Assembly (NCBI GenBank): GCA_000182565.2
Contig: KQ257454.1
Direction: 5' to 3' (one strand)
Length of the DNA stretch: 64,000 bases
From: Spizellomyces punctatus DAOM BR117
Taxonomy: Eukaryota
Part shown: in pieces, positions 15,724 through 22,379 of the stretch
How the letters are laid out: every line of letters begins with the position of its first letter
How positions within the stretch are numbered: the first letter of the stretch is position 1
The notes under the pieces: model-generated
What the model saw: only the letters and a program-made list of their open reading frames with translations
The model's database searches: none
What the model was told of the DNA's origin: nothing
Made by a program: the position numbers and the translations under genes

Positions 15724-17383
15724 ATGCGCGTGCGTCTCGCCAGCCTTGCCGCCTTTTTTGTGGCCTCGACCGTAGTAGTGGCCAACCCGGTGCCTGTCGA
15801 CAACCTGGTCGGTGCTGCTGTGCCTGAACAGTACATTGTTGTGTTCAAGGAGGGAATCAATGAGCAGGCTCGTAAGTGACGTGTCGCGTAATCTTGTGAC
15901 GTGTACAATGTCCTCATAGAATGTCGCAGTCTCTTCCCACTGGAACTGGCTTCAGACCACGATTACTCCCGGTCCGCAGCTCTCTGTTCAACAAGTGTCT
16001 GATTCCGGCGTGACGCTCTCGCTGGGCAGTTCTATTGGCATATACGGTGTTAAGCATCAGTACGACTTTGGAAACTTCAAAGGATATTCTGCGAGATTGC
16101 CTGCAGACGTTGCCAAGGCTCTATCGGTAAGCGTCACAGGGTCGTTGTGACTCGGGAATCGCAAATGTTTTATACCAACGATGTTGCGACTGTAGGATGA
16201 TCCGAATGTGGCGTACGTGGAAGAGGACAAGATTGTTAGTATTCTTGGATCACAGAAGAACCCGCCATCATGGGGATTGCAGCGTATTGACACACGAAAG
16301 CTACCCCTCACAAAGACGTACGAGTATCCCGACTCTGCTGGAGGTAACGACCTATGATTTCATTCGCTCTGTCAAATACATGCACTAACTGTGGTCTTGT
16401 ACTTTCAGAGGGTGTTGACGCTTACGTCATTGACACTGGCATCTTCATCGACCACCCAGAGTTTGAGGGCCGTGCTCGCGTTGGAAAGAGCTTCACCACT
16501 GACGGCGAAGCCGATGGAAATGGCCACGGTACCCACGTAGCCGGGACAATTGGATCAAAGACGTATGGAGTTGCAAAGAAGGTTAACCTGATTGCTGTCA
16601 AGGTGTTGGATGCGCGTGGATCAGGAACGACGTCAGACGTCATTGCCGGTATTGAGTATGTTGCACAGACTGCGCCTAGTTCTGGACGCAAGTCGGTAGC
16701 CAACATGTCATTGGGCGGCGGTGCATCAACCACTTTGGATCGTGCCGTGCAGGCCGCTATCCGGGCCGGCGTTGTTTTTGCCATTGCCGCGGGTAACTCT
16801 GGTCGCGACGCATGTTTGTTGTCACCTGCTCGGGTCCCTGAAGCCATCACTGTTGCTGCATCTGATAACACCGACCGTCTCGCCTCCTTCTCTGAGAAGG
16901 GCACTTGCGTTGATATCATTGCGCCTGGTGTTGACATTACATCCACGTGGAACAATGGGCGTACCAACACCATCTCGGGAACCTCCATGGCCACCCCACA
17001 CGTTGCTGGTGTTGTTGCCTTGGCTCTTGCTGAGGGCAACTTTTCCAGCCCGGCGGAGGTTGAGACATATTTGAAGGTCGTCGCCTCCAAGGACAAGATT
17101 TCTGGCAACCTTGCTAGAACACCCAACAACTTCCTCTACAATGGCGTTACTGGTGGCAAAGTCCCTGACGATGAGCCTGCAGAACCTGCCCCCTTGCCTC
17201 CAAACGACCCTGAGCCAGACCCAGGAGAAGGTGTCTGCCCCTTCCCCCAGTGTCTCTTTGACCCTGCGTAAGTCTTTCGCATTACTTTTTTCATTTTGTG
17301 ACATTGCTGACCTGTCGCTCACTATTAGTTGCACCGAATGTTGCATTGACTGCTTGTGGAATGGCAAGAGCAAGCATGCTTGA
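15724..17383 (+). CDS. Secreted subtilisin-like serine protease (S8A, proteinase K subfamily) with I9 propeptide and Cys-rich tail, 5 exons
   Basis: Signal peptide MRVRLASLAAFFVASTVVVA, propeptide QYIVVFK, PSWGLQRID, and catalytic motifs VIDTG, HGTHVAG and GTSMATPHVAG. Confidence 0.95.
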
Positions 17384-17573: not shown

Positions 17574-18122
17574 TCATCTCGTCTTGCTCGATTTCTGTCT
17601 AAGCACCTTTACCCATTTCAACCTTGTTCCATGACTTATCCCGGCCTCGACAATATTTTGTCCATCATTGTCCAACTTCCTGCCATGCCCAATAATGACG
17701 AGGGCATGTCGCTTCCACACACCCTTCCAAGATATTGCCCTTGTTCGTCCAGCCTCTGTCAAAGCGAGATGCTCAAATGCCTGTCGCACCAAACGTTTTA
17801 CATCTAGCACAGTATGTGCTTGATTGACAATAATGTCTACCAAATGGCATTCAGCTTGGCTTGGGAGAAGAACAATATCCTTTTGAATGCGTTGGCATGT
17901 GCCCTACATACGTAAAGGGGGTAAAGAACCACGTTCCACAGACACTTGGAAAGCTTCTCCTAACTCAAGAGCGACCAGCGCATTGACTTGTGCAAGGGTT
18001 GGATTCTTTGGGAGATCCGCCAGAAGCTGATCAGCCAATAGTGACTGTATGCGCTCTTCCAAAACCGCCTGACCAACGTTCTGGTTTCTGACGTTTGAGG
18101 GCGTGAGGAGCGATGATGGCAT
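17574..18122 (-). CDS. SNRNP25: U11/U12 snRNP 25 kDa protein (ubiquitin-like fold), 2 exons
   Basis: LLADLPKNPTLAQVNALVALELGEAF, TVLDVKRLV and ISWKGVWKRHAL match SNRNP25 family motifs (L.DLP...T, ISW..VW). Confidence 0.85.
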
Positions 18123-18456
18123 CCCGGTCCTTTTACAAACGACTCATCCGTTCCGAACAGTAATCAAGGAGCGATGAGTAAAAAGTAAAAACGATGACAA
18201 AAGGACGAAATGCGCGGACGCGGATGGACGAAATTTGCCGATCATTTTATTCACGTGAGTCTCTGCTCAAGATGTGGTTTTGAGCTTTAGAGCTTGGAAA
18301 TAGCCCAGGACATTTGAGCCCATTCTCGTCCTCGTTGCCTCTGATTTCAGTGGATAAACTTTGCAGCGAGCGAGCTCGGATTTGTTGCTGCAATTTGTGT
18401 ACTGACAGCTTGAACACTGCCAGTTTAGAGAGCATTGGTGAATTAGTCGCCAAAAC

Positions 18457-20528
18457 ATGTCTCGCCCAATTCTCTTCAAGAACGTTGCCTACTTTGGAGG
18501 ATCCGACTTTGACTTTGTCTCTAAAGGATCTATCCGCATCGAAGGTGGCCGGATCGTACAAATAGCTCCTCAAACGGCTGAGGTGAATGGTGTGAACGGT
18601 GTTACGGATCACGACACTTTGGTGGTCGACGGTACTAGGTATTTGGCACTACCTGGTCTGATCAATGCTGCGTTGTCGATAGCTGCACCGAGCAAGGATG
18701 AGATCCCTGAAGAAGTGTACGAGGCCTTGGACTTGGTATGCGTTTGTTAAATTTAGTACCTTATGTTGAAATGGATTTGCGAGGGCAGGCCTGGTGTTGG
18801 CTATCTAGAGCAAAAATGCTTGATGTGCTGCCCAACTCTAGCCTGCCTGTACAGGGATGATTGCCTAGTAACAATAATCTAAACATTTATTGCTTCGTTC
18901 TAATGTAGTCAACGCATGAGCTCAAGGACGACGCGGTGTCCGTCTTGTCAGAAGCTGTAAACTACGCCGTCCAAACAGGAACGACCACAATAGCACTATT
19001 GGCAGACGGTACAACAACAAAGCCCTTGGATCCAATTCTGGCCACCTCTCCGGCGCTCCAACAATGCGTTTTACCCTTCATTGCGGAACCCCGAAATCCA
19101 GCAGCCTACATGCCCGTCGACACACGACCAGAGTTGGTAGAGATTGTTCGGGTTGGACCGCATAGATACACAGCCAAAATGGCTGAGCCAGCTGTGAAGA
19201 GTGGAAAAGTCAATGGAGTGGTGCATGAAGGCCATTACAACATCCAATGTTCCCATACGGCCACTTCTACTGCTCAGGCTCAAGAGAAGGGTAAACCGAT
19301 CATTGCAACAGGCAATGTCCTCTTCAACTCTAGCAATCTGTGGAAAGAGCTTGAAAATCGCGCGCGACAACTCGTTGCCAGGTATACTTCATATCAGCAT
19401 ATCCTACTCGTGTCTCAGACCATTTACGCCTCTTTGCAGTAAGCAAGCAGACGAACGATCCCTAAAGGACCTACTTCGAGCTGTGACTGTCCACCCAGCG
19501 GAACTTCTCGGTCTTTTTGATGGCGGAGTCTTGCAAACGGGAAGCCGAGCGGACATCATTTTGATAAAGCTAAAGCCACATTGGCAACTTGACGCCCGAG
19601 GTACTTTTGTTTTGGTGCCCGTTTTTGCCATGCAAGGAATCTAATCCGGCAAATCCACTTAGGTGTCTTGCTGTCCCTGTTCCTCCATGGAAATGACCCG
19701 TCCCTGGTGCATGCAGTCTTGAAGGGTGGAGCGTTGCACTTTTCACAAGGGTCGCTAGCTACCGAGCTGCAAGCCGTGTCTCTGGCAAAGTACTACGCTG
19801 CGCCAAATCTGCCAGATACCACCAAAATCGATACGGGGTCTTGTGACTTTGACAGTGTGGAGGACGCGATTGAAGCTTTCCGTAAGTGCCGAATATGTTT
19901 CACTCGAGATCGTTTTATACTCACCCACTGCGGCATCTCAGGTAGAGGTGAGTTTATCGTCGCGATTGACAATGAAGACCGAGAGAACGAGGGCGACTTG
20001 ATCATCGCGGGTGAAGATATAACGGCCGAGAAAGCAGCATTCATGATCCGTTATACAAGCGGCGTGATTTGCGTATCGGTGGATGGGCAGCGATTGGACG
20101 AACTAGAGCTCCCTCTTATGGTTGAAAACAACACGGAAACATTGCGCACAGCATACACCATCTCAGTCGACTACAAACACGGTACCACAACTGGCATCTC
20201 AGCTGCTGATAGAGCGGCCACCATTCGGGCAATCGCCAACCCATCAGCCAAAGCCTCTGATTTCAATCGGCCGGGACATGTCTTTCCTCTTAGATCTGTC
20301 CCAGGGGGAACACTAAAGCGTGTTGGACATACTGAGGCGAGTGTCGATTTTGCCAAGCTGGCTGGCAAGCAAAAGGTCGCAGCGATTTGCGAAATTGTCT
20401 TGGATGATGGTCGGATGGCGAGGAGAGATGATTTGCGGGTGTTTTCAAAACAGCATGGGTTAAAGATGGTGACAATTAGTGATTTGGTAAAGTACAGGGT
20501 TGCGAATGGCTTGGGTGAGGATTGGTAG
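18457..20528 (+). CDS. RIB3: Fusion: degenerate amidohydrolase-fold domain plus 3,4-dihydroxy-2-butanone 4-phosphate synthase
   Basis: C-terminal half has Rib3 motifs DNEDRENEGDL, TTGISAADRA, RPGHVFPL and GHTEASVD. N-terminal exons 18457-18735, 18909-19381, 19440-19600 and 19663-19881 splice in phase into it and show amidohydrolase beta-sandwich and barrel motifs. Confidence 0.88.
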
Positions 20529-20779
20529 ACTGTTTTAGGGACTATTTGATACGTAGCCATCGGACATAGGGTTGGAGGTAGCTCATAGAACCGGCACTGC
20601 TTCACTTTCTTATTTCGTTATCTAATGCTTGCATTGATCATTTCTGTTTCATATTGCTCTGAGACATTTTCATTCGTATGTCGAAGCTGATGCTTCACTG
20701 TCGTAGGATAATTTTTGTACAGGAGCAAGTGACACCTGCAAATCAAGTCTATCATTGGCTGAAATATGTACAGATTATT

Positions 20780-22379
20780 CTACAATATGAACGCTTTCCG
20801 CGTAGTAGACATGTGATACTGCAATCCAGTACGCGGACAAGTGACCACACCGCCATTTTGAGCCGCCATTTCCTGCAACGACTACAAAAGAAAAAGGGTA
20901 AGCACAACCAAGGCTTCGCAACTCGACTCTAAGCCCAGTCACAGACCTGTGCACTGTACACATAACCATTGGGCAGCACCAGCGGTGGATTGTCCTCATC
21001 CATAATAACACCCGATATACGATCCACAATGCATGAATTAACGTGATGAGCATTCGGCAAGTCCTCTGCAAGCACGCCAAATGTGTCGCCAGCGCATATT
21101 GGGCAATTGATAGCATGGTCACCTTCGTGGTAGCACATTGGCGTTTTCAGTGCAGACAGACCGGCTTGGAGAGTCATGGTTAGAAGCGGTTGGGAAGTAA
21201 GATTGTGAAGAGCGTGGTTGTCAGCGTGGAATTGTTCGATGAGAGCATCCCAGCGGGATTCGTCGAATAGATCCTAATGGCATGGCCAAAATGAGCGAGT
21301 TTGTTGGAACGAACAAGATACGCCAAGTATCGGATTGGACAAGGGTTTACCCGATAGGCATCGCAAGACGTATCAGGGGAAAAGGCTAGCAGAGCCATTG
21401 CTTGCTGAATCTCCTTCATGTGGGTCACATGCCAGGCAGTCAGATACTTCCGGGAATATTTGATGGCTTCCTCCTTTTTTTGTTGTCGAACGAGTTCAAT
21501 GTATTCTTGTAGGCGGATATTGAACTCTAGCGTGCTCTGAGAGAGTTATGAGCAATAGAAGGAAAGGACTGCTATGAGCTACACATCAGTACCTGAATTT
21601 TCTCGAGACTAGACCGATTGTCTGTACACCAGCGGAGACACTCTGTACAGTTTCTGTTTTTCAAAGCCTCCTCTACCTGGCGCGACTCTGCAAAAAGCTC
21701 TATATCGACTAAATCCTATGGGCGCAACAGAGGGTTACATCATGATTAAGTCTTGGATGTAAAGAAAAAGACCTCCTTACCTCAATATGAATTTCGCTCG
21801 CGAGTCGTTTAGCAGTCTCACTATAGCCCTGTCTCAGCATGTAATCCACCAATACCCTATCCAATCTCGTTTGACTCCATCGCGCGTATGCGTCGGATTC
21901 TGCATTCGGAATCGCCATGAGCTCATTGAGATGGTTTAACCGCGTTTTGGTGCGTTGGATATAGAGCTGCTCTTCGCCCTTTGTCTCTGACAGCTAAAAT
22001 GCCCTCAAGCCTGATGAGGATCTGATGACCGCAACATTCATACATCAAGACCGTTTGTCGAATACCTTTCGCTTGAGTTTCTGCAAACGCGTAACCATGT
22101 CTCCTAGGCTCTTGACAGCTTCATCCGGTGTAGTCTTCCCGGGTTTGGCTAGTTTGCCAACTTCGGATGTCACTTCTTTCATCACATACTCTACATATCT
22201 TTGGGAGGTACGAGCAGCCTTTTTGAGTTGTTCAGCGGGAACCTGAATGACGAATGCAAGTAAGACAAGGGTACAGGGAAAGTACGATATATGGGCCCGC
22301 CCATTGGAGGCTTACCGACCTTGAGCAAAGGTTGCTCCAAGCTTAACAATCCTTCATAGTTTAGACGAGCTTTGTCCAT
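20780..22379 (-). CDS. FYV10: GID/CTLH ubiquitin ligase subunit Fyv10/Gid9/MAEA (LisH, CTLH, CRA, degenerate RING)
   Basis: LLSLEQPLLK, WSQTRLDRVLVDYMLRQGY (LisH), LEFNIRLQEYIELVR, LQAGLSALKTPMC, NCPIC, PLVLPNGYVY and VTCPRTG. Confidence 0.92.

What the first reader, a model, noticed from the sequence alone, without database searches (positions are those of the whole stretch)
18457..20528. Riboflavin enzyme Rib3 fused to an apparently metal-less amidohydrolase (deaminase-fold) domain
Seen: five exons join in correct phase (introns 18736-18908, 19382-19439, 19601-19662, 19882-19941) into one ORF with no stop between the halves. The N-terminal ~370 aa has amidohydrolase hallmarks: IRIEGGRIVQI, VDGTRYLALPGLIN, GTTT, AVTVHPAELLGL..GVLQTGSRADIIL and VHAVLKGG. 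The metal-binding HxH after PGLIN is replaced by AALS, and the barrel GTD Asp position appears as ATGN. Known: fungal Rib3 is normally a stand-alone ~200-aa enzyme, and its familiar fusions are to GTP cyclohydrolase II (RibBA). Inference: this is an unusual architecture in which a dead nucleoside-deaminase fold could act as a purine/flavin-precursor sensor, scaffold or channelling module for riboflavin synthesis.
Basis: partly seen in the sequence, partly recalled or inferred. Interest (0 to 1): 0.75.

Follow-up and report, generated by a model that had tools for sequence, protein, structure and literature searches.

The report
Chytrid Rib3 fused to dead amidohydrolase
This chytrid fungus makes its riboflavin enzyme Rib3 (DHBP synthase) as one 572-residue protein with a decayed, metal-less deaminase-type domain in front, and the same fusion occurs in other chytrid fungi but appears unstudied.

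Summary
Five exons (18457-20528, +) join through four GT..AG introns into a 572-aa ORF. It is 93.7% identical and collinear with an annotated 572-aa Spizellomyces protein.

Exon 4 alone encodes the end of the N-terminal domain, the linker and the first residues of the DHBP-synthase domain. The fusion is therefore not two merged genes.

The C-terminal domain is a complete DHBP synthase (Pfam 269 bits; Z 22 to solved Rib3). The N-terminal ~345 aa has an amidohydrolase fold closest to MTA/adenosine/guanine deaminases and AtzA/TrzN (Z 24.9). It lacks both histidines of HxH, the strand-5/6 His/Glu and the strand-8 Asp in 8 of 8 chytrid sequences, against 7 of 7 HxH in free-living relatives.

The fusion is not unique to this genome. 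It occurs in eight named chytrid genera, including Batrachochytrium, and their synthase domains form one clade (SH-aLRT 97).

I read it as an active Rib3 carrying a non-catalytic pseudo-deaminase, most likely a structural or oligomerisation module; that role is inferred. It resembles RibBX and the dead DHOase-like domain of fungal Ura2. Four literature searches found no description. It is a new variant of a known kind, of moderate interest.

The parts
18457..18735 (+). Exon 1 (aa 1-93): start codon, the N-terminal beta-sandwich strands of the amidohydrolase-like domain and barrel strand 1, with PGLIN followed by a degenerate HxH
   Evidence: Weak NCBIfam N-terminal matches to dihydroorotase and 8-oxoguanine deaminase models, all far below their cut-offs. 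The AtzA segment PGFINAHTH aligns here.
18670..18678 (+). Codons A72-L73-S74, at the position of the metal-binding His-x-His of amidohydrolases
   Evidence: Read from the sequence. Profile alignment to AtzA. Column table: 0 of 8 chytrid rows keep both His, against 7 of 7 stand-alone relatives.
18736..18908 (+). Intron 1 (173 nt, GT..AG, phase 0)
18909..19381 (+). Exon 2 (aa 94-251): GTTT strand 2, a lineage-variable beta-rich insert that replaces barrel strands 3-7, and the ATGN remnant of the strand-8 GTD
   Evidence: No Pfam family reaches threshold. The DSSP of the AF2 model shows consecutive strands over 147-206. The alignment with stand-alone relatives shows the gap.
19305..19316 (+). Codons A226-T227-G228-N229, the remnant of the strand-8 'GTD' motif with the metal-binding Asp lost
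   Evidence: The Asp column holds G in 8 of 8 chytrid rows and D in 7 of 7 stand-alone rows.
19382..19439 (+). Intron 2 (58 nt, GT..AG, phase 2)
19440..19600 (+). Exon 3 (aa 251-305): the conserved C-terminal amidohydrolase segment (LLRAVTVHPAELLGL...GSRADIILIKL)
   Evidence: Pfam Amidohydro_1 E 9.3e-07, 28.8 bits, profile positions 281-322 of 345. 45 NCBIfam amidohydrolase models match at E up to 1.
19601..19662 (+). Intron 3 (62 nt, GT..AG, phase 1)
19663..19881 (+). Exon 4 (aa 305-378): the last beta-sandwich strands of the N-domain, the linker helix with the conserved KYY..N.P motif, and the first residues of the DHBP-synthase domain (Pfam start at aa 371 = nt 19860). This one exon spans the domain boundary.
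19882..19941 (+). Intron 4 (60 nt, GTAAGT..AG, phase 1). It is in frame and free of stops, and it lies inside the DHBP-synthase domain.
19942..20528 (+). Exon 5 (aa 378-572 plus TAG): the body of the DHBP synthase (Rib3/RibB) domain
   Evidence: Pfam DHBP_synthase E 6.5e-79, 264.3 bits. TIGR00506 ribB 227.9 bits against a cut-off of 177.45. Solved DHBPS chains match at E down to 4.8e-72 and Z 22.
19977..19997 (+). Codons D390-R-E392-N-E-G-D396: the acidic active-site loop, with E392 at the position of the metal ligand Glu39 of Vibrio cholerae RibB
   Evidence: Invariant in 12 of 12 fused proteins. Ligand identity comes from passages of PMC9305975. The position was mapped by the ungapped offset of the 7uez match, which is an inference.
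20325..20336 (+). Codons G506-H507-T508-E509, with H507 at the position of the metal ligand His154 of V. cholerae RibB (the first residue of a helix)
   Evidence: Invariant in 12 of 12. A helix spans 507-517 in the model. PMC9305975 passages.
20529..20653 (+). 3' UTR, ending at a poly(A) addition site near 20653
   Evidence: RNA run X7: plus-strand depth of 32-79x over 20356-20637, and 6 reads with a loose A-run behind 20653.

Best explanation
This is one gene of a Spizellomyces-type chytrid. It encodes a 572-aa, two-domain Rib3.

C-terminal domain (aa ~366-572). It is a complete, presumably active DHBP synthase. It should convert ribulose 5-phosphate to L-3,4-dihydroxy-2-butanone 4-phosphate plus formate with Mg2+, as in other Rib3/RibB enzymes.

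N-terminal domain (aa ~1-345). It descends from a metal-dependent amidohydrolase of the MTA/adenosine/guanine-deaminase and chlorohydrolase branch. It has become a pseudoenzyme:
- the composite beta-sandwich, barrel strands 1-2 and the post-strand-8 helices are kept;
- all metal and catalytic residues are gone;
- barrel strands 3-7 are replaced by a variable beta-rich insert here and deleted outright in some other chytrids.

Origin. The fusion most likely arose once in an ancestor of the Chytridiomycetes and has been kept under purifying, though relaxed, selection.

What is shown and what is inferred. Shown: the gene structure, the domain identities, the loss of the catalytic site, and the distribution across chytrids. 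Inferred: DHBP-synthase activity (from intact motifs), and the role of the N-domain. I take that role to be a non-catalytic structural or oligomerisation module for the synthase, at about 45% on its own. This parallels the defective DHOase-like domain of fungal Ura2 and the inactive DHOase-like partner of Pseudomonas ATCase.
For: Gene model:
- The ORF and 4 of 4 GT..AG introns are verified.
- Exon 4 spans the domain boundary, and no in-frame Met lies between residues 184 and 412.
- The protein is collinear with annotated P0001 at 93.7% identity and no gaps.
- The transcript 3' end, with poly(A), is at ~20653.

Synthase domain:
- Pfam PF00926 gives 268.7 bits over profile positions 1-191 of 191 in P0001.
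- TIGR00506 is above its cut-off.
- PDB sequence hits reach 4.8e-72, and structural Z is 22.0-22.4 to 3mio, 1tks and 1k49.
- The RENEGD loop, C421, H490 and G-H507-T-E509 are invariant in 12 of 12 fused proteins.

N-domain:
- Pfam Amidohydro_1 matches at 28.6 bits, on profile positions 254-329 only.
- The N-domain profile hits AtzA at 2.7e-9.
- Its nearest stand-alone proteins are 402-469 aa amidohydrolases, four of them named MTA/SAH deaminase (E 1.6e-12 and weaker).
- VIA-align gives Z 24.9, rmsd 3.7, 291 aligned residues to 4gbd_A over model residues 3-344.
- For the shorter Polychytrium protein, Z is 19.9 with 240 aligned residues to AtzA.

Dead catalytic site (alignment):
- HxH is kept by 0 of 8 chytrid rows and 7 of 7 stand-alone rows.
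- The strand-5 H..E and strand-6 His align to gaps in 8 of 8 chytrid rows.
- The strand-8 Asp column holds G in 8 of 8 chytrid rows.

Distribution:
- The N-domain HMM matches 13 of 159 proteins examined. Eight of those 13 were used to build it; five were not.
- Named sources are Spizellomyces, Gaertneriomyces, Polychytrium, Rhizophlyctis, Globomyces, Dinochytrium, Batrachochytrium and Rhizoclosmatium.
- In the synthase-domain tree, 13 of 14 fused rows plus 2 Synchytrium rows form a clade with SH-aLRT 97.
- Constraining all 16 rows into one clade gives a better likelihood, p-AU 0.892.

Selection: the N-domain is conserved but evolves faster than the synthase domain. Identity is 91.5% vs 97.6% to P0001 and 51% vs 75% to Gaertneriomyces.

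Precedent for dead amidohydrolase-fold domains serving structurally: passages of PMC8497156.
Against: - No RNA read crossing any of the four junctions was recovered. The only RNA library with signal is 3'-biased.
- No enzymatic, metal-content or oligomer data exist.
- The AF2 models are of moderate confidence (mean pLDDT 74.2 and 72.7; pTM 0.60 and 0.54). The relative placement of the two domains is therefore not established.
- The scaffold role rests on analogy only.
- In the N-domain, 11 columns are invariant across 8 sequences: M1, P66, G117, G228, W238, T267, G280, G285, A288, A322 and G327. These neither indicate nor exclude a binding site.
- One fused protein, the unnamed and divergent P0044, falls outside the chytrid clade in the free tree, on a long branch with weak support of 16.
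- Synchytrium gene models lack the N-domain, so the domain is dispensable in at least one lineage, or those models are incomplete.
- The clade for the AU test was named after the tree had been seen.
Confidence: 0.8

Rival explanations
1. The N-domain is a ligand-binding regulatory module, which is the first reader's 'sensor' idea. A remnant of the deaminase pocket would still bind a purine, nucleoside, pterin or flavin precursor and allosterically tune DHBP synthase, linking the two branches of riboflavin synthesis.
For: Its closest structural relatives all bind purine, nucleoside or triazine ligands: MTA/adenosine deaminases, guanine deaminase, isocytosine deaminase, AtzA and TrzN. The domain has been kept across chytrid orders. 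The motifs GTTT, xSGN, W238 and W299 are conserved.
Against: In those enzymes the pocket is built by the metal site and the loops after barrel strands 1-8. Here strands 3-7 and every metal ligand are missing. The central region varies from roughly 110 to 30 residues between lineages. No conserved cluster of polar residues is seen among the invariant columns.
Confidence: 0.13
2. The N-domain is a docking platform that recruits another riboflavin enzyme (GTP cyclohydrolase II, lumazine synthase or riboflavin synthase) for substrate channelling.
For: DHBP synthase is often fused to other pathway enzymes. Among the proteins scanned were GTP_cyclohydro2 fusions in both domain orders and two Lum_binding fusions. 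This shows a selective advantage to physical coupling.
Against: There is no evidence of any partner. The neighbouring genes are unrelated: CTLH/CRA, ubiquitin-like and subtilase. No co-fold could be run, because the complex predictor was unavailable.
Confidence: 0.05
3. The fusion is an annotation or reading artefact. Under this view there are two adjacent genes, a decaying amidohydrolase pseudogene and a normal RIB3, joined by a chance open frame.
For: No spliced RNA read was obtained across the junctions. Gene models of several chytrid homologues are visibly imperfect: P0007 is truncated, P0153 carries an insert, and P0004 is garbled in one segment.
Against: A single exon (19663-19881) encodes the conserved end of the N-domain, the linker and the start of the synthase domain. 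No stop and no in-frame Met is available for a separate RIB3. The same collinear fusion is found in eight genera annotated independently, with N-domain motifs conserved at 20-50% identity. A pseudogene would not keep an open frame and these motifs over that distance.
Confidence: 0.02

Closest known systems
Stand-alone fungal Rib3 / DHBP synthase (solved: Candida albicans 1tks, Magnaporthe grisea 1k49) and bacterial RibB
   Same: The C-terminal domain matches at 48-54% identity to 3mio, 1tks and 1k49, with Z 22.0-22.4 over ~175-179 residues. The full Pfam profile is covered. The acidic loop and the GHTE motif are intact.
   Different: It carries ~365 extra N-terminal residues. Other fungi sampled here have 210-269 aa proteins without this domain.
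RibBX (two-domain DHBP synthase with a degenerate GTP-cyclohydrolase-II-like domain; solved from Acinetobacter baumannii, 6mnz) and RibBA
   Same: An active DHBP synthase is fused to a second domain derived from an enzyme, and in RibBX that second domain is thought to be non-catalytic. 6mnz matches the synthase domain.
   Different: Here the extra domain is N-terminal, not C-terminal. It has the amidohydrolase fold, not the GTP cyclohydrolase II fold, and it is unrelated to the riboflavin pathway. No PF00925 match was found in the window's exons or in P0001/P0002. That RibBX is catalytically dead in its X domain is recalled and taken from an earlier scan note; I did not test it.
MTA/SAH and adenosine deaminases (4gbd, 4dyk, TM0936 1p1m/1j6p), guanine deaminase, and AtzA/TrzN chlorohydrolases. 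I recall this branch as COG0402; the label comes from no call.
   Same: These are the best structural matches to the N-domain: Z 23-24.9 with 278-298 aligned residues. They are also the best sequence matches. The PGxIN, GTTT and C-terminal T..A...LGL..G.i..G..AD motifs are shared.
   Different: All metal and catalytic residues are absent, and about 90-190 residues of the barrel are missing or replaced. It therefore cannot be a metal-dependent deaminase of this kind.
Catalytically defective amidohydrolase-fold domains kept as structural parts: the DHOase-like domain of fungal Ura2 (CAD-like) and the inactive DHOase-like polypeptide needed by Pseudomonas aeruginosa ATCase
   Same: A dead amidohydrolase-superfamily domain is fused to, or associated with, an active biosynthetic enzyme and retained over long times (passages of PMC8497156).
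   Different: The amidohydrolase branch differs (deaminase/chlorohydrolase, not dihydroorotase), and so do the pathway and the partner enzyme. A structural role is documented for those cases; here it is only inferred.

Membership tests
DHBP synthase (Pfam PF00926; NCBIfam TIGR00506 ribB) | Full-length match to the family profile above the curated cut-off | tested here: met
   Exon 5 alone scores 264.3 bits against a cut-off of 26.4, and TIGR00506 scores 227.9 against 177.45. P0001 covers profile positions 1-191 of 191 at 268.7 bits.
DHBP synthase (Pfam PF00926; NCBIfam TIGR00506 ribB) | Metal-ligand Glu in the acidic loop and His at the start of the following helix (Glu39 and His154 in V. cholerae RibB, from PMC9305975 passages) | tested here: met
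   E392 (in RENEGD) and H507 (in GHTE) are invariant in 12 of 12 fused proteins. Positions were mapped by the ungapped offset of the 7uez match and by the helix start in the model, so the mapping is an inference.
DHBP synthase (Pfam PF00926; NCBIfam TIGR00506 ribB) | DHBPS fold | tested here: met
   3mio_B gives Z 22.4, rmsd 2.7, 175 aligned residues. 1tks_A gives Z 22.2, rmsd 2.5, 178 aligned residues.
DHBP synthase (Pfam PF00926; NCBIfam TIGR00506 ribB) | Conversion of ribulose 5-phosphate to DHBP and formate | not testable with these tools
   Needs an enzyme assay or complementation of a rib3/ribB mutant.
Amidohydrolase superfamily, metal-dependent hydrolases (Pfam PF01979) | Overall fold: composite beta-sandwich plus (beta/alpha)8 barrel | tested here: inconclusive
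   There is strong structural similarity: Z 24.9 with 291 residues aligned to a 435-residue deaminase. The Pfam match, however, covers only profile positions 254-329 of 345. The model shows consecutive strands rather than beta/alpha units over 147-206. In Polychytrium only ~240 residues align. The sandwich is kept and the barrel is incomplete.
Amidohydrolase superfamily, metal-dependent hydrolases (Pfam PF01979) | HxH metal-binding motif after strand 1 (role taken from passages of PMC11342369) | tested here: not met
   A72-L73-S74 here. 0 of 8 chytrid rows keep both His (2 of 8 keep the second), against 7 of 7 stand-alone relatives.
Amidohydrolase superfamily, metal-dependent hydrolases (Pfam PF01979) | Strand-5 and strand-6 histidines, and the catalytic Glu of the HxxE in deaminases | tested here: not met
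   These positions align to gaps in 8 of 8 chytrid rows. In the stand-alone rows the second strand-5 His is present in 7 of 7, and the Glu and the strand-6 His in 6 of 7.
Amidohydrolase superfamily, metal-dependent hydrolases (Pfam PF01979) | Strand-8 aspartate (the GTD motif) | tested here: not met
   The column holds G in 8 of 8 chytrid rows and D in 7 of 7 stand-alone rows. The local motif is ATGN. With a one-column shift Globomyces would show a D.
RibBA / RibBX | A GTP cyclohydrolase II (PF00925) or GCHII-like domain fused to DHBPS | tested here: not met
   No PF00925 match at E up to 1 in the window's exon translations, nor at E up to 0.01 in P0001-P0009, P0011 and P0044.

The most novel reading that the evidence does not exclude
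The pseudo-deaminase domain is not mere ballast. It would be a chytrid-specific regulatory or docking module, either sensing a purine/pterin-type metabolite or recruiting another riboflavin enzyme. That would couple the pentose-phosphate branch of riboflavin synthesis (DHBP) to the GTP branch, a mode of pathway control not known in any other fungus.
Probability: 0.15. Interest if true: 0.7.

Novelty: new variant of a known kind. Interest (0 to 1): 0.45.

Why it matters
Riboflavin synthesis is essential in fungi and absent in animals, and Rib3 has been treated as a simple ~200-aa enzyme. In eight sampled chytrid genera, including the amphibian pathogen Batrachochytrium, it instead comes as a ~450-570-aa protein. 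Its front half is a long-conserved, catalytically dead deaminase relic.

This gives three things:
- a clean natural example of pseudoenzyme domain retention, with progressive erosion of a TIM barrel while the beta-sandwich is kept;
- a candidate shared derived character, so far seen only in chytrids among the named hits;
- a testable question about what a dead amidohydrolase contributes to a DHBP synthase.

It also flags several faulty public gene models for this locus.

Tried and rejected
- RNA support for splicing. No listed holder of the stretch is on record as RNA. The one RNA run laid (X7) is 3'-biased and gave no joints. Runs X2-X4 are low-depth contigs that run through the introns, so they are genomic DNA.
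- The window's whole genome is not held. I could not test whether this is the only DHBP-synthase gene.
The queue was full (listed under steps), and then the tool was declared unavailable. Nothing was folded, so nothing follows from it.
- The word-indexed homologue search with exon 2 found only P0001, and with residues 1-365 of P0001 only two proteins. The wider chytrid set came from the HMMER scan.
- Bacterial-type promoter/terminator and composition scans are not informative for a eukaryotic gene.
- Earlier scan notes hold nothing on this genome.
- Literature. The following term sets turned up no description of this architecture in the listings I saw: 'DHBP synthase/amidohydrolase/Spizellomyces' (5 papers, none on this); 'riboflavin/chytrid/RIB3' (none of the 15 listed holds 'chytrid'); 'Batrachochytrium + dihydroxy-2-butanone' (0 papers); 'riboflavin biosynthesis + Chytridiomycota' (0 papers). 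Subscription journals and supplements were not searched.
- Rejected: an active, non-canonical hydrolase in the N-domain. No conserved polar or acidic cluster is present, and the region that would carry the site is deleted in Polychytrium, Globomyces and Rhizoclosmatium.
Full report
**1. The observation**

The exons are 18457-18735, 18909-19381, 19440-19600, 19663-19881 and 19942-20528. They give 1719 nt, that is 572 codons and a TAG.

All four introns (173, 58, 62 and 60 nt) begin GT and end AG, with phases 0, 2, 1 and 1.

Two features of the sequence settle the question of one gene or two.
- Exon 4 (19663-19881) by itself encodes the last strands of the N-terminal domain (VLLSLFLHGNDPSLVHAVLKGGALHF), the linker, and the first residues of the DHBP-synthase domain. 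The Pfam domain starts at residue 371 (nt 19860) and intron 4 falls at residue 377/378. The frame 19593-20528 is open even if intron 4 is retained.
- No in-frame Met lies between residues 184 and 412. A separate Rib3 could not be started without losing its acidic active-site loop.

**2. Independent gene models**

A word-indexed search with exon 2 found a 572-aa NCBI protein of Spizellomyces sp. 'palustris' (P0001). The window's protein aligns to it without gaps at 93.7% identity: 91.5% over residues 1-365 and 97.6% over 366-572. The window therefore comes from a close relative in that genus. A 569-aa Gaertneriomyces protein (P0002) has the same layout.

**3. RNA**

No listed holder of the stretch is on record as RNA. 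A 2026 RNA run with the same species label (X7) was laid on the stretch. It is 3'-biased.
- Plus-strand depth is 32-79x over 20356-20637.
- A loose A-run sits behind 20653.
- A convergent minus-strand transcript ends at ~20709-20712.
- No joints were recovered.

So the gene is expressed and polyadenylated about 125 nt after the stop. The splice pattern and the single-transcript claim rest on sequence and conservation, not on reads.

**4. The C-terminal domain**

Exon 5 matches Pfam DHBP_synthase at 264.3 bits and TIGR00506 (ribB) at 227.9 bits against a cut-off of 177.45. In P0001 the whole profile, positions 1-191 of 191, is covered.

Solved DHBP synthases match at E down to 4.8e-72. The AF2 model aligns to 3mio, 1tks and 1k49 at Z 22.0-22.4 with rmsd 2.5-2.8.

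Passages of PMC9305975 name Glu39 (loop 1) and His154 (first residue of a helix) as the metal ligands of V. cholerae RibB. By the ungapped offset of the 7uez match these are E392 (in D-R-E-N-E-G-D) and H507 (in G-H-T-E). Both are invariant in 12 of 12 fused proteins, and 507 begins a helix in the model. I conclude that the synthase is intact; its activity itself is inferred.

**5. The N-terminal domain**

Sequence profiles see only its two ends. Exon 1 gives weak N-terminal matches to dihydroorotase and 8-oxoguanine deaminase models. Exon 3 gives Amidohydro_1 at 28.8 bits and 45 NCBIfam amidohydrolase models. Exon 2 gives nothing above threshold.

I built a profile of N-domains from unchanged prefixes of eight stored proteins (A3).
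- It hits AtzA at 2.7e-9, with AtzA's LPGFINAHTH aligned to the chytrid LPGLINAA-x.
- In the 5.8-billion-protein set it finds, besides 4 fused chytrid proteins, 402-469 aa proteins carrying PF07969+PF01979. These start at E 1.6e-12, and four are named 5-methylthioadenosine/S-adenosylhomocysteine deaminase (291 proteins at E up to 0.001 among 8000 scored, 120 listed).

The language-model atlas also places residues 1-365 among amidohydrolases, with score 0.94 but a low count of shared features.

The AF2 model has mean pLDDT 74.2 and pTM 0.60. In Foldseek it matches AtzA at 7.9e-12 and TrzN at 5.5e-11, after the DHBPS hits. In the VIA-align second look, residues 3-344 match MTA/adenosine deaminases, AtzA, TrzN, aminofutalosine, isocytosine and guanine deaminases at Z 23-24.9, rmsd 3.7-4.1, with 278-298 aligned residues.

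**6. The domain is dead and eroded**

I aligned 8 chytrid proteins with 7 stand-alone relatives and read off the ligand columns.

| Position | Chytrid rows (n = 8) | Stand-alone rows (n = 7) |
|---|---|---|
| Both His of HxH | 0 (2 keep the second His) | 7 |
| Strand-5 His | gaps in all 8 | second His in 7 |
| Strand-5 Glu | gaps in all 8 | 6 |
| Strand-6 His | gaps in all 8 | 6 |
| Strand-8 Asp | G in all 8 | D in 7 |

The role of these residues as metal ligands comes from passages of PMC11342369.

Between GTTT (strand 2) and the xSG(N) remnant of GTD lie about 110 residues in Spizellomycetales. The model draws these as consecutive beta-strands rather than beta/alpha units. In Polychytrium, Globomyces and Rhizoclosmatium only some 30-50 residues lie there. 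The Polychytrium model (pLDDT 72.7) still aligns to AtzA at Z 19.9, but over only 240 residues.

Three parts are conserved:
- the composite beta-sandwich, in both its N- and C-terminal halves;
- strands 1-2;
- the helices after strand 8 and a linker helix with K-Y-Y..N-P.

The columns invariant across 8 sequences are M1, P66, G117, G228, W238, T267, G280, G285, A288, A322 and G327. This is a structural signature, not a catalytic one.

**7. Distribution and origin**

An HMMER scan of 1.84 billion representatives with the two-sequence profile gave 13,822 hits at E up to 0.001. Almost all are plain or GCHII-fused DHBP synthases. Nine of the 150 listed carry the N-domain.

The N-domain HMM matches 13 of the 159 proteins P0001-P0159. 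Eight of those were used to build it; five (P0004, P0008, P0009, P0153, P0159) were not.

Named sources are Polychytrium aggregatum, Rhizophlyctis rosea, Globomyces (2 species), Dinochytrium kinnereticum, Batrachochytrium dendrobatidis (498-aa truncated and 559-aa full models), Rhizoclosmatium (2 species), Spizellomyces and Gaertneriomyces. Two further fused proteins, P0011 and P0044, are unnamed.

Other fungi sampled have short proteins: Piptocephalis 216/227, Pneumocystis 210, Atractiella 237 and Coniferiporia 269 aa.

In a tree of 80 synthase domains (4 partial rows dropped; quick IQ-TREE), 13 of 14 fused rows plus both Synchytrium rows form a clade with SH-aLRT 97. The divergent P0044 sits elsewhere on a 1.35-long branch with support 16. 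Forcing all 16 together gives a likelihood 26 units higher than the free search, with p-AU 0.892 (the group was named after seeing the tree). A single origin is thus the simplest reading.

Synchytrium gene models keep only the K-Y-Y..N-P linker. That is either a loss or incomplete annotation.

The N-domain evolves about two to four times faster than the synthase domain but stays recognisable at 19-51% identity. This fits relaxed but real constraint.

**8. Mechanism**

Shown: one ORF, an intact synthase, a dead amidohydrolase-derived domain, and conservation across the chytrid genera sampled.

Inferred: the protein works as Rib3, and the N-domain contributes something non-catalytic. I favour a structural or oligomerisation role, at about 45%. 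Two things point that way. The parts that are kept are the sandwich and peripheral helices, not a pocket. Dead amidohydrolase-fold domains also do exactly this elsewhere: fungal Ura2 has a defective DHOase-like domain, and P. aeruginosa ATCase needs an inactive DHOase-like polypeptide (passages of PMC8497156).

A ligand-sensor role (about 13%) or a docking role for another pathway enzyme (about 5%) is not excluded. An annotation artefact is very unlikely (about 2%).

**9. Comparison and novelty**

The synthase half is an ordinary member of PF00926. The front half is homologous to PF01979 enzymes but fails three tested defining features, so it should be called amidohydrolase-derived and not an amidohydrolase.

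The closest architectural precedent is RibBX (6mnz), a DHBP synthase with a degenerate second domain. There the extra domain is C-terminal and GCHII-like.

Automated annotation already records PF00926+PF01979 on these proteins. Four literature searches found no paper describing or discussing the fusion; subscription journals and supplements were not covered.

I rate it a new variant of a known kind. It is interesting to people working on pseudoenzymes, chytrid biology or riboflavin synthesis, but it is not a new principle.

**10. Surroundings**

The neighbours are unrelated to riboflavin:
- a convergent CTLH/CRA-domain gene (minus strand, 20932-21545);
- a divergent gene with a Ubiquitin_4 domain (minus strand, 17577-17903);
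- a subtilase ORF (plus strand, 16348-17268).

There is no pathway cluster.

Noticed in passing
window 20700-21545 (- strand): This is a convergent neighbour with CTLH/CRA domain matches (E 7e-20 and 3e-9). Its poly(A) site lies near 20709-20712, only ~55 nt from the Rib3 gene's poly(A) site at ~20653.
   Followed up: partly
window 17577-18143 (- strand) and 18144-18456: This is a divergent upstream gene with a Ubiquitin_4 domain (E 2e-16). The ~300-bp gap up to the Rib3 start codon would be a shared promoter region.
   Followed up: no
window 16348-17268 (+): A 307-aa open frame here has a Peptidase_S8 (subtilase) match at E 3.6e-44.
   Followed up: no
window 19882-19941: Intron 4 is 60 nt, in frame and without a stop. 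If retained it would insert 20 residues into the first helix of the synthase domain instead of truncating the protein.
   Followed up: no
proteins P0007, P0153, P0004 (public chytrid gene models): Three public gene models of the fused gene look faulty. The B. dendrobatidis JEL423 model (498 aa) starts at the PGLIN motif and lacks the N-terminal sandwich present in the 559-aa model P0159. Globomyces JEL0801 carries a 10-residue insert in the first synthase helix. The Rhizophlyctis model loses the conserved post-strand-8 segment.
   Followed up: partly
proteins P0010/P0155 (Synchytrium endobioticum): The synthase domain nests inside the fused chytrid clade. The gene models nevertheless lack the N-domain and keep only the K-Y-Y..N-P linker motif, and they carry a ~120-aa C-terminal extension of no known family.
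   Followed up: partly
proteins P0105, P0135 and P0023, P0060, P0115, P0130, P0132 (hits): Other DHBP-synthase fusions appear among the top hits. Two have Lum_binding (riboflavin-synthase-type) domains in front of DHBPS. Five have the reversed order, GTP cyclohydrolase II then DHBPS. An earlier scan note describes the reversed order as algal.
   Followed up: no
protein P0012 (Entrophospora candida): A DHBP synthase is followed by an ERG4/ERG24 fragment in one 476-aa model. This is probably two merged genes.
   Followed up: no
protein P0044 (unnamed, 586 aa): This is a very divergent fused protein. Its N-domain is 19% and its synthase domain 45% identical to P0001. The acidic-loop context is altered (E-E-S-R-ENEGD, LIIPAQ) and the branch is long. 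It may come from an unsampled lineage.
   Followed up: partly
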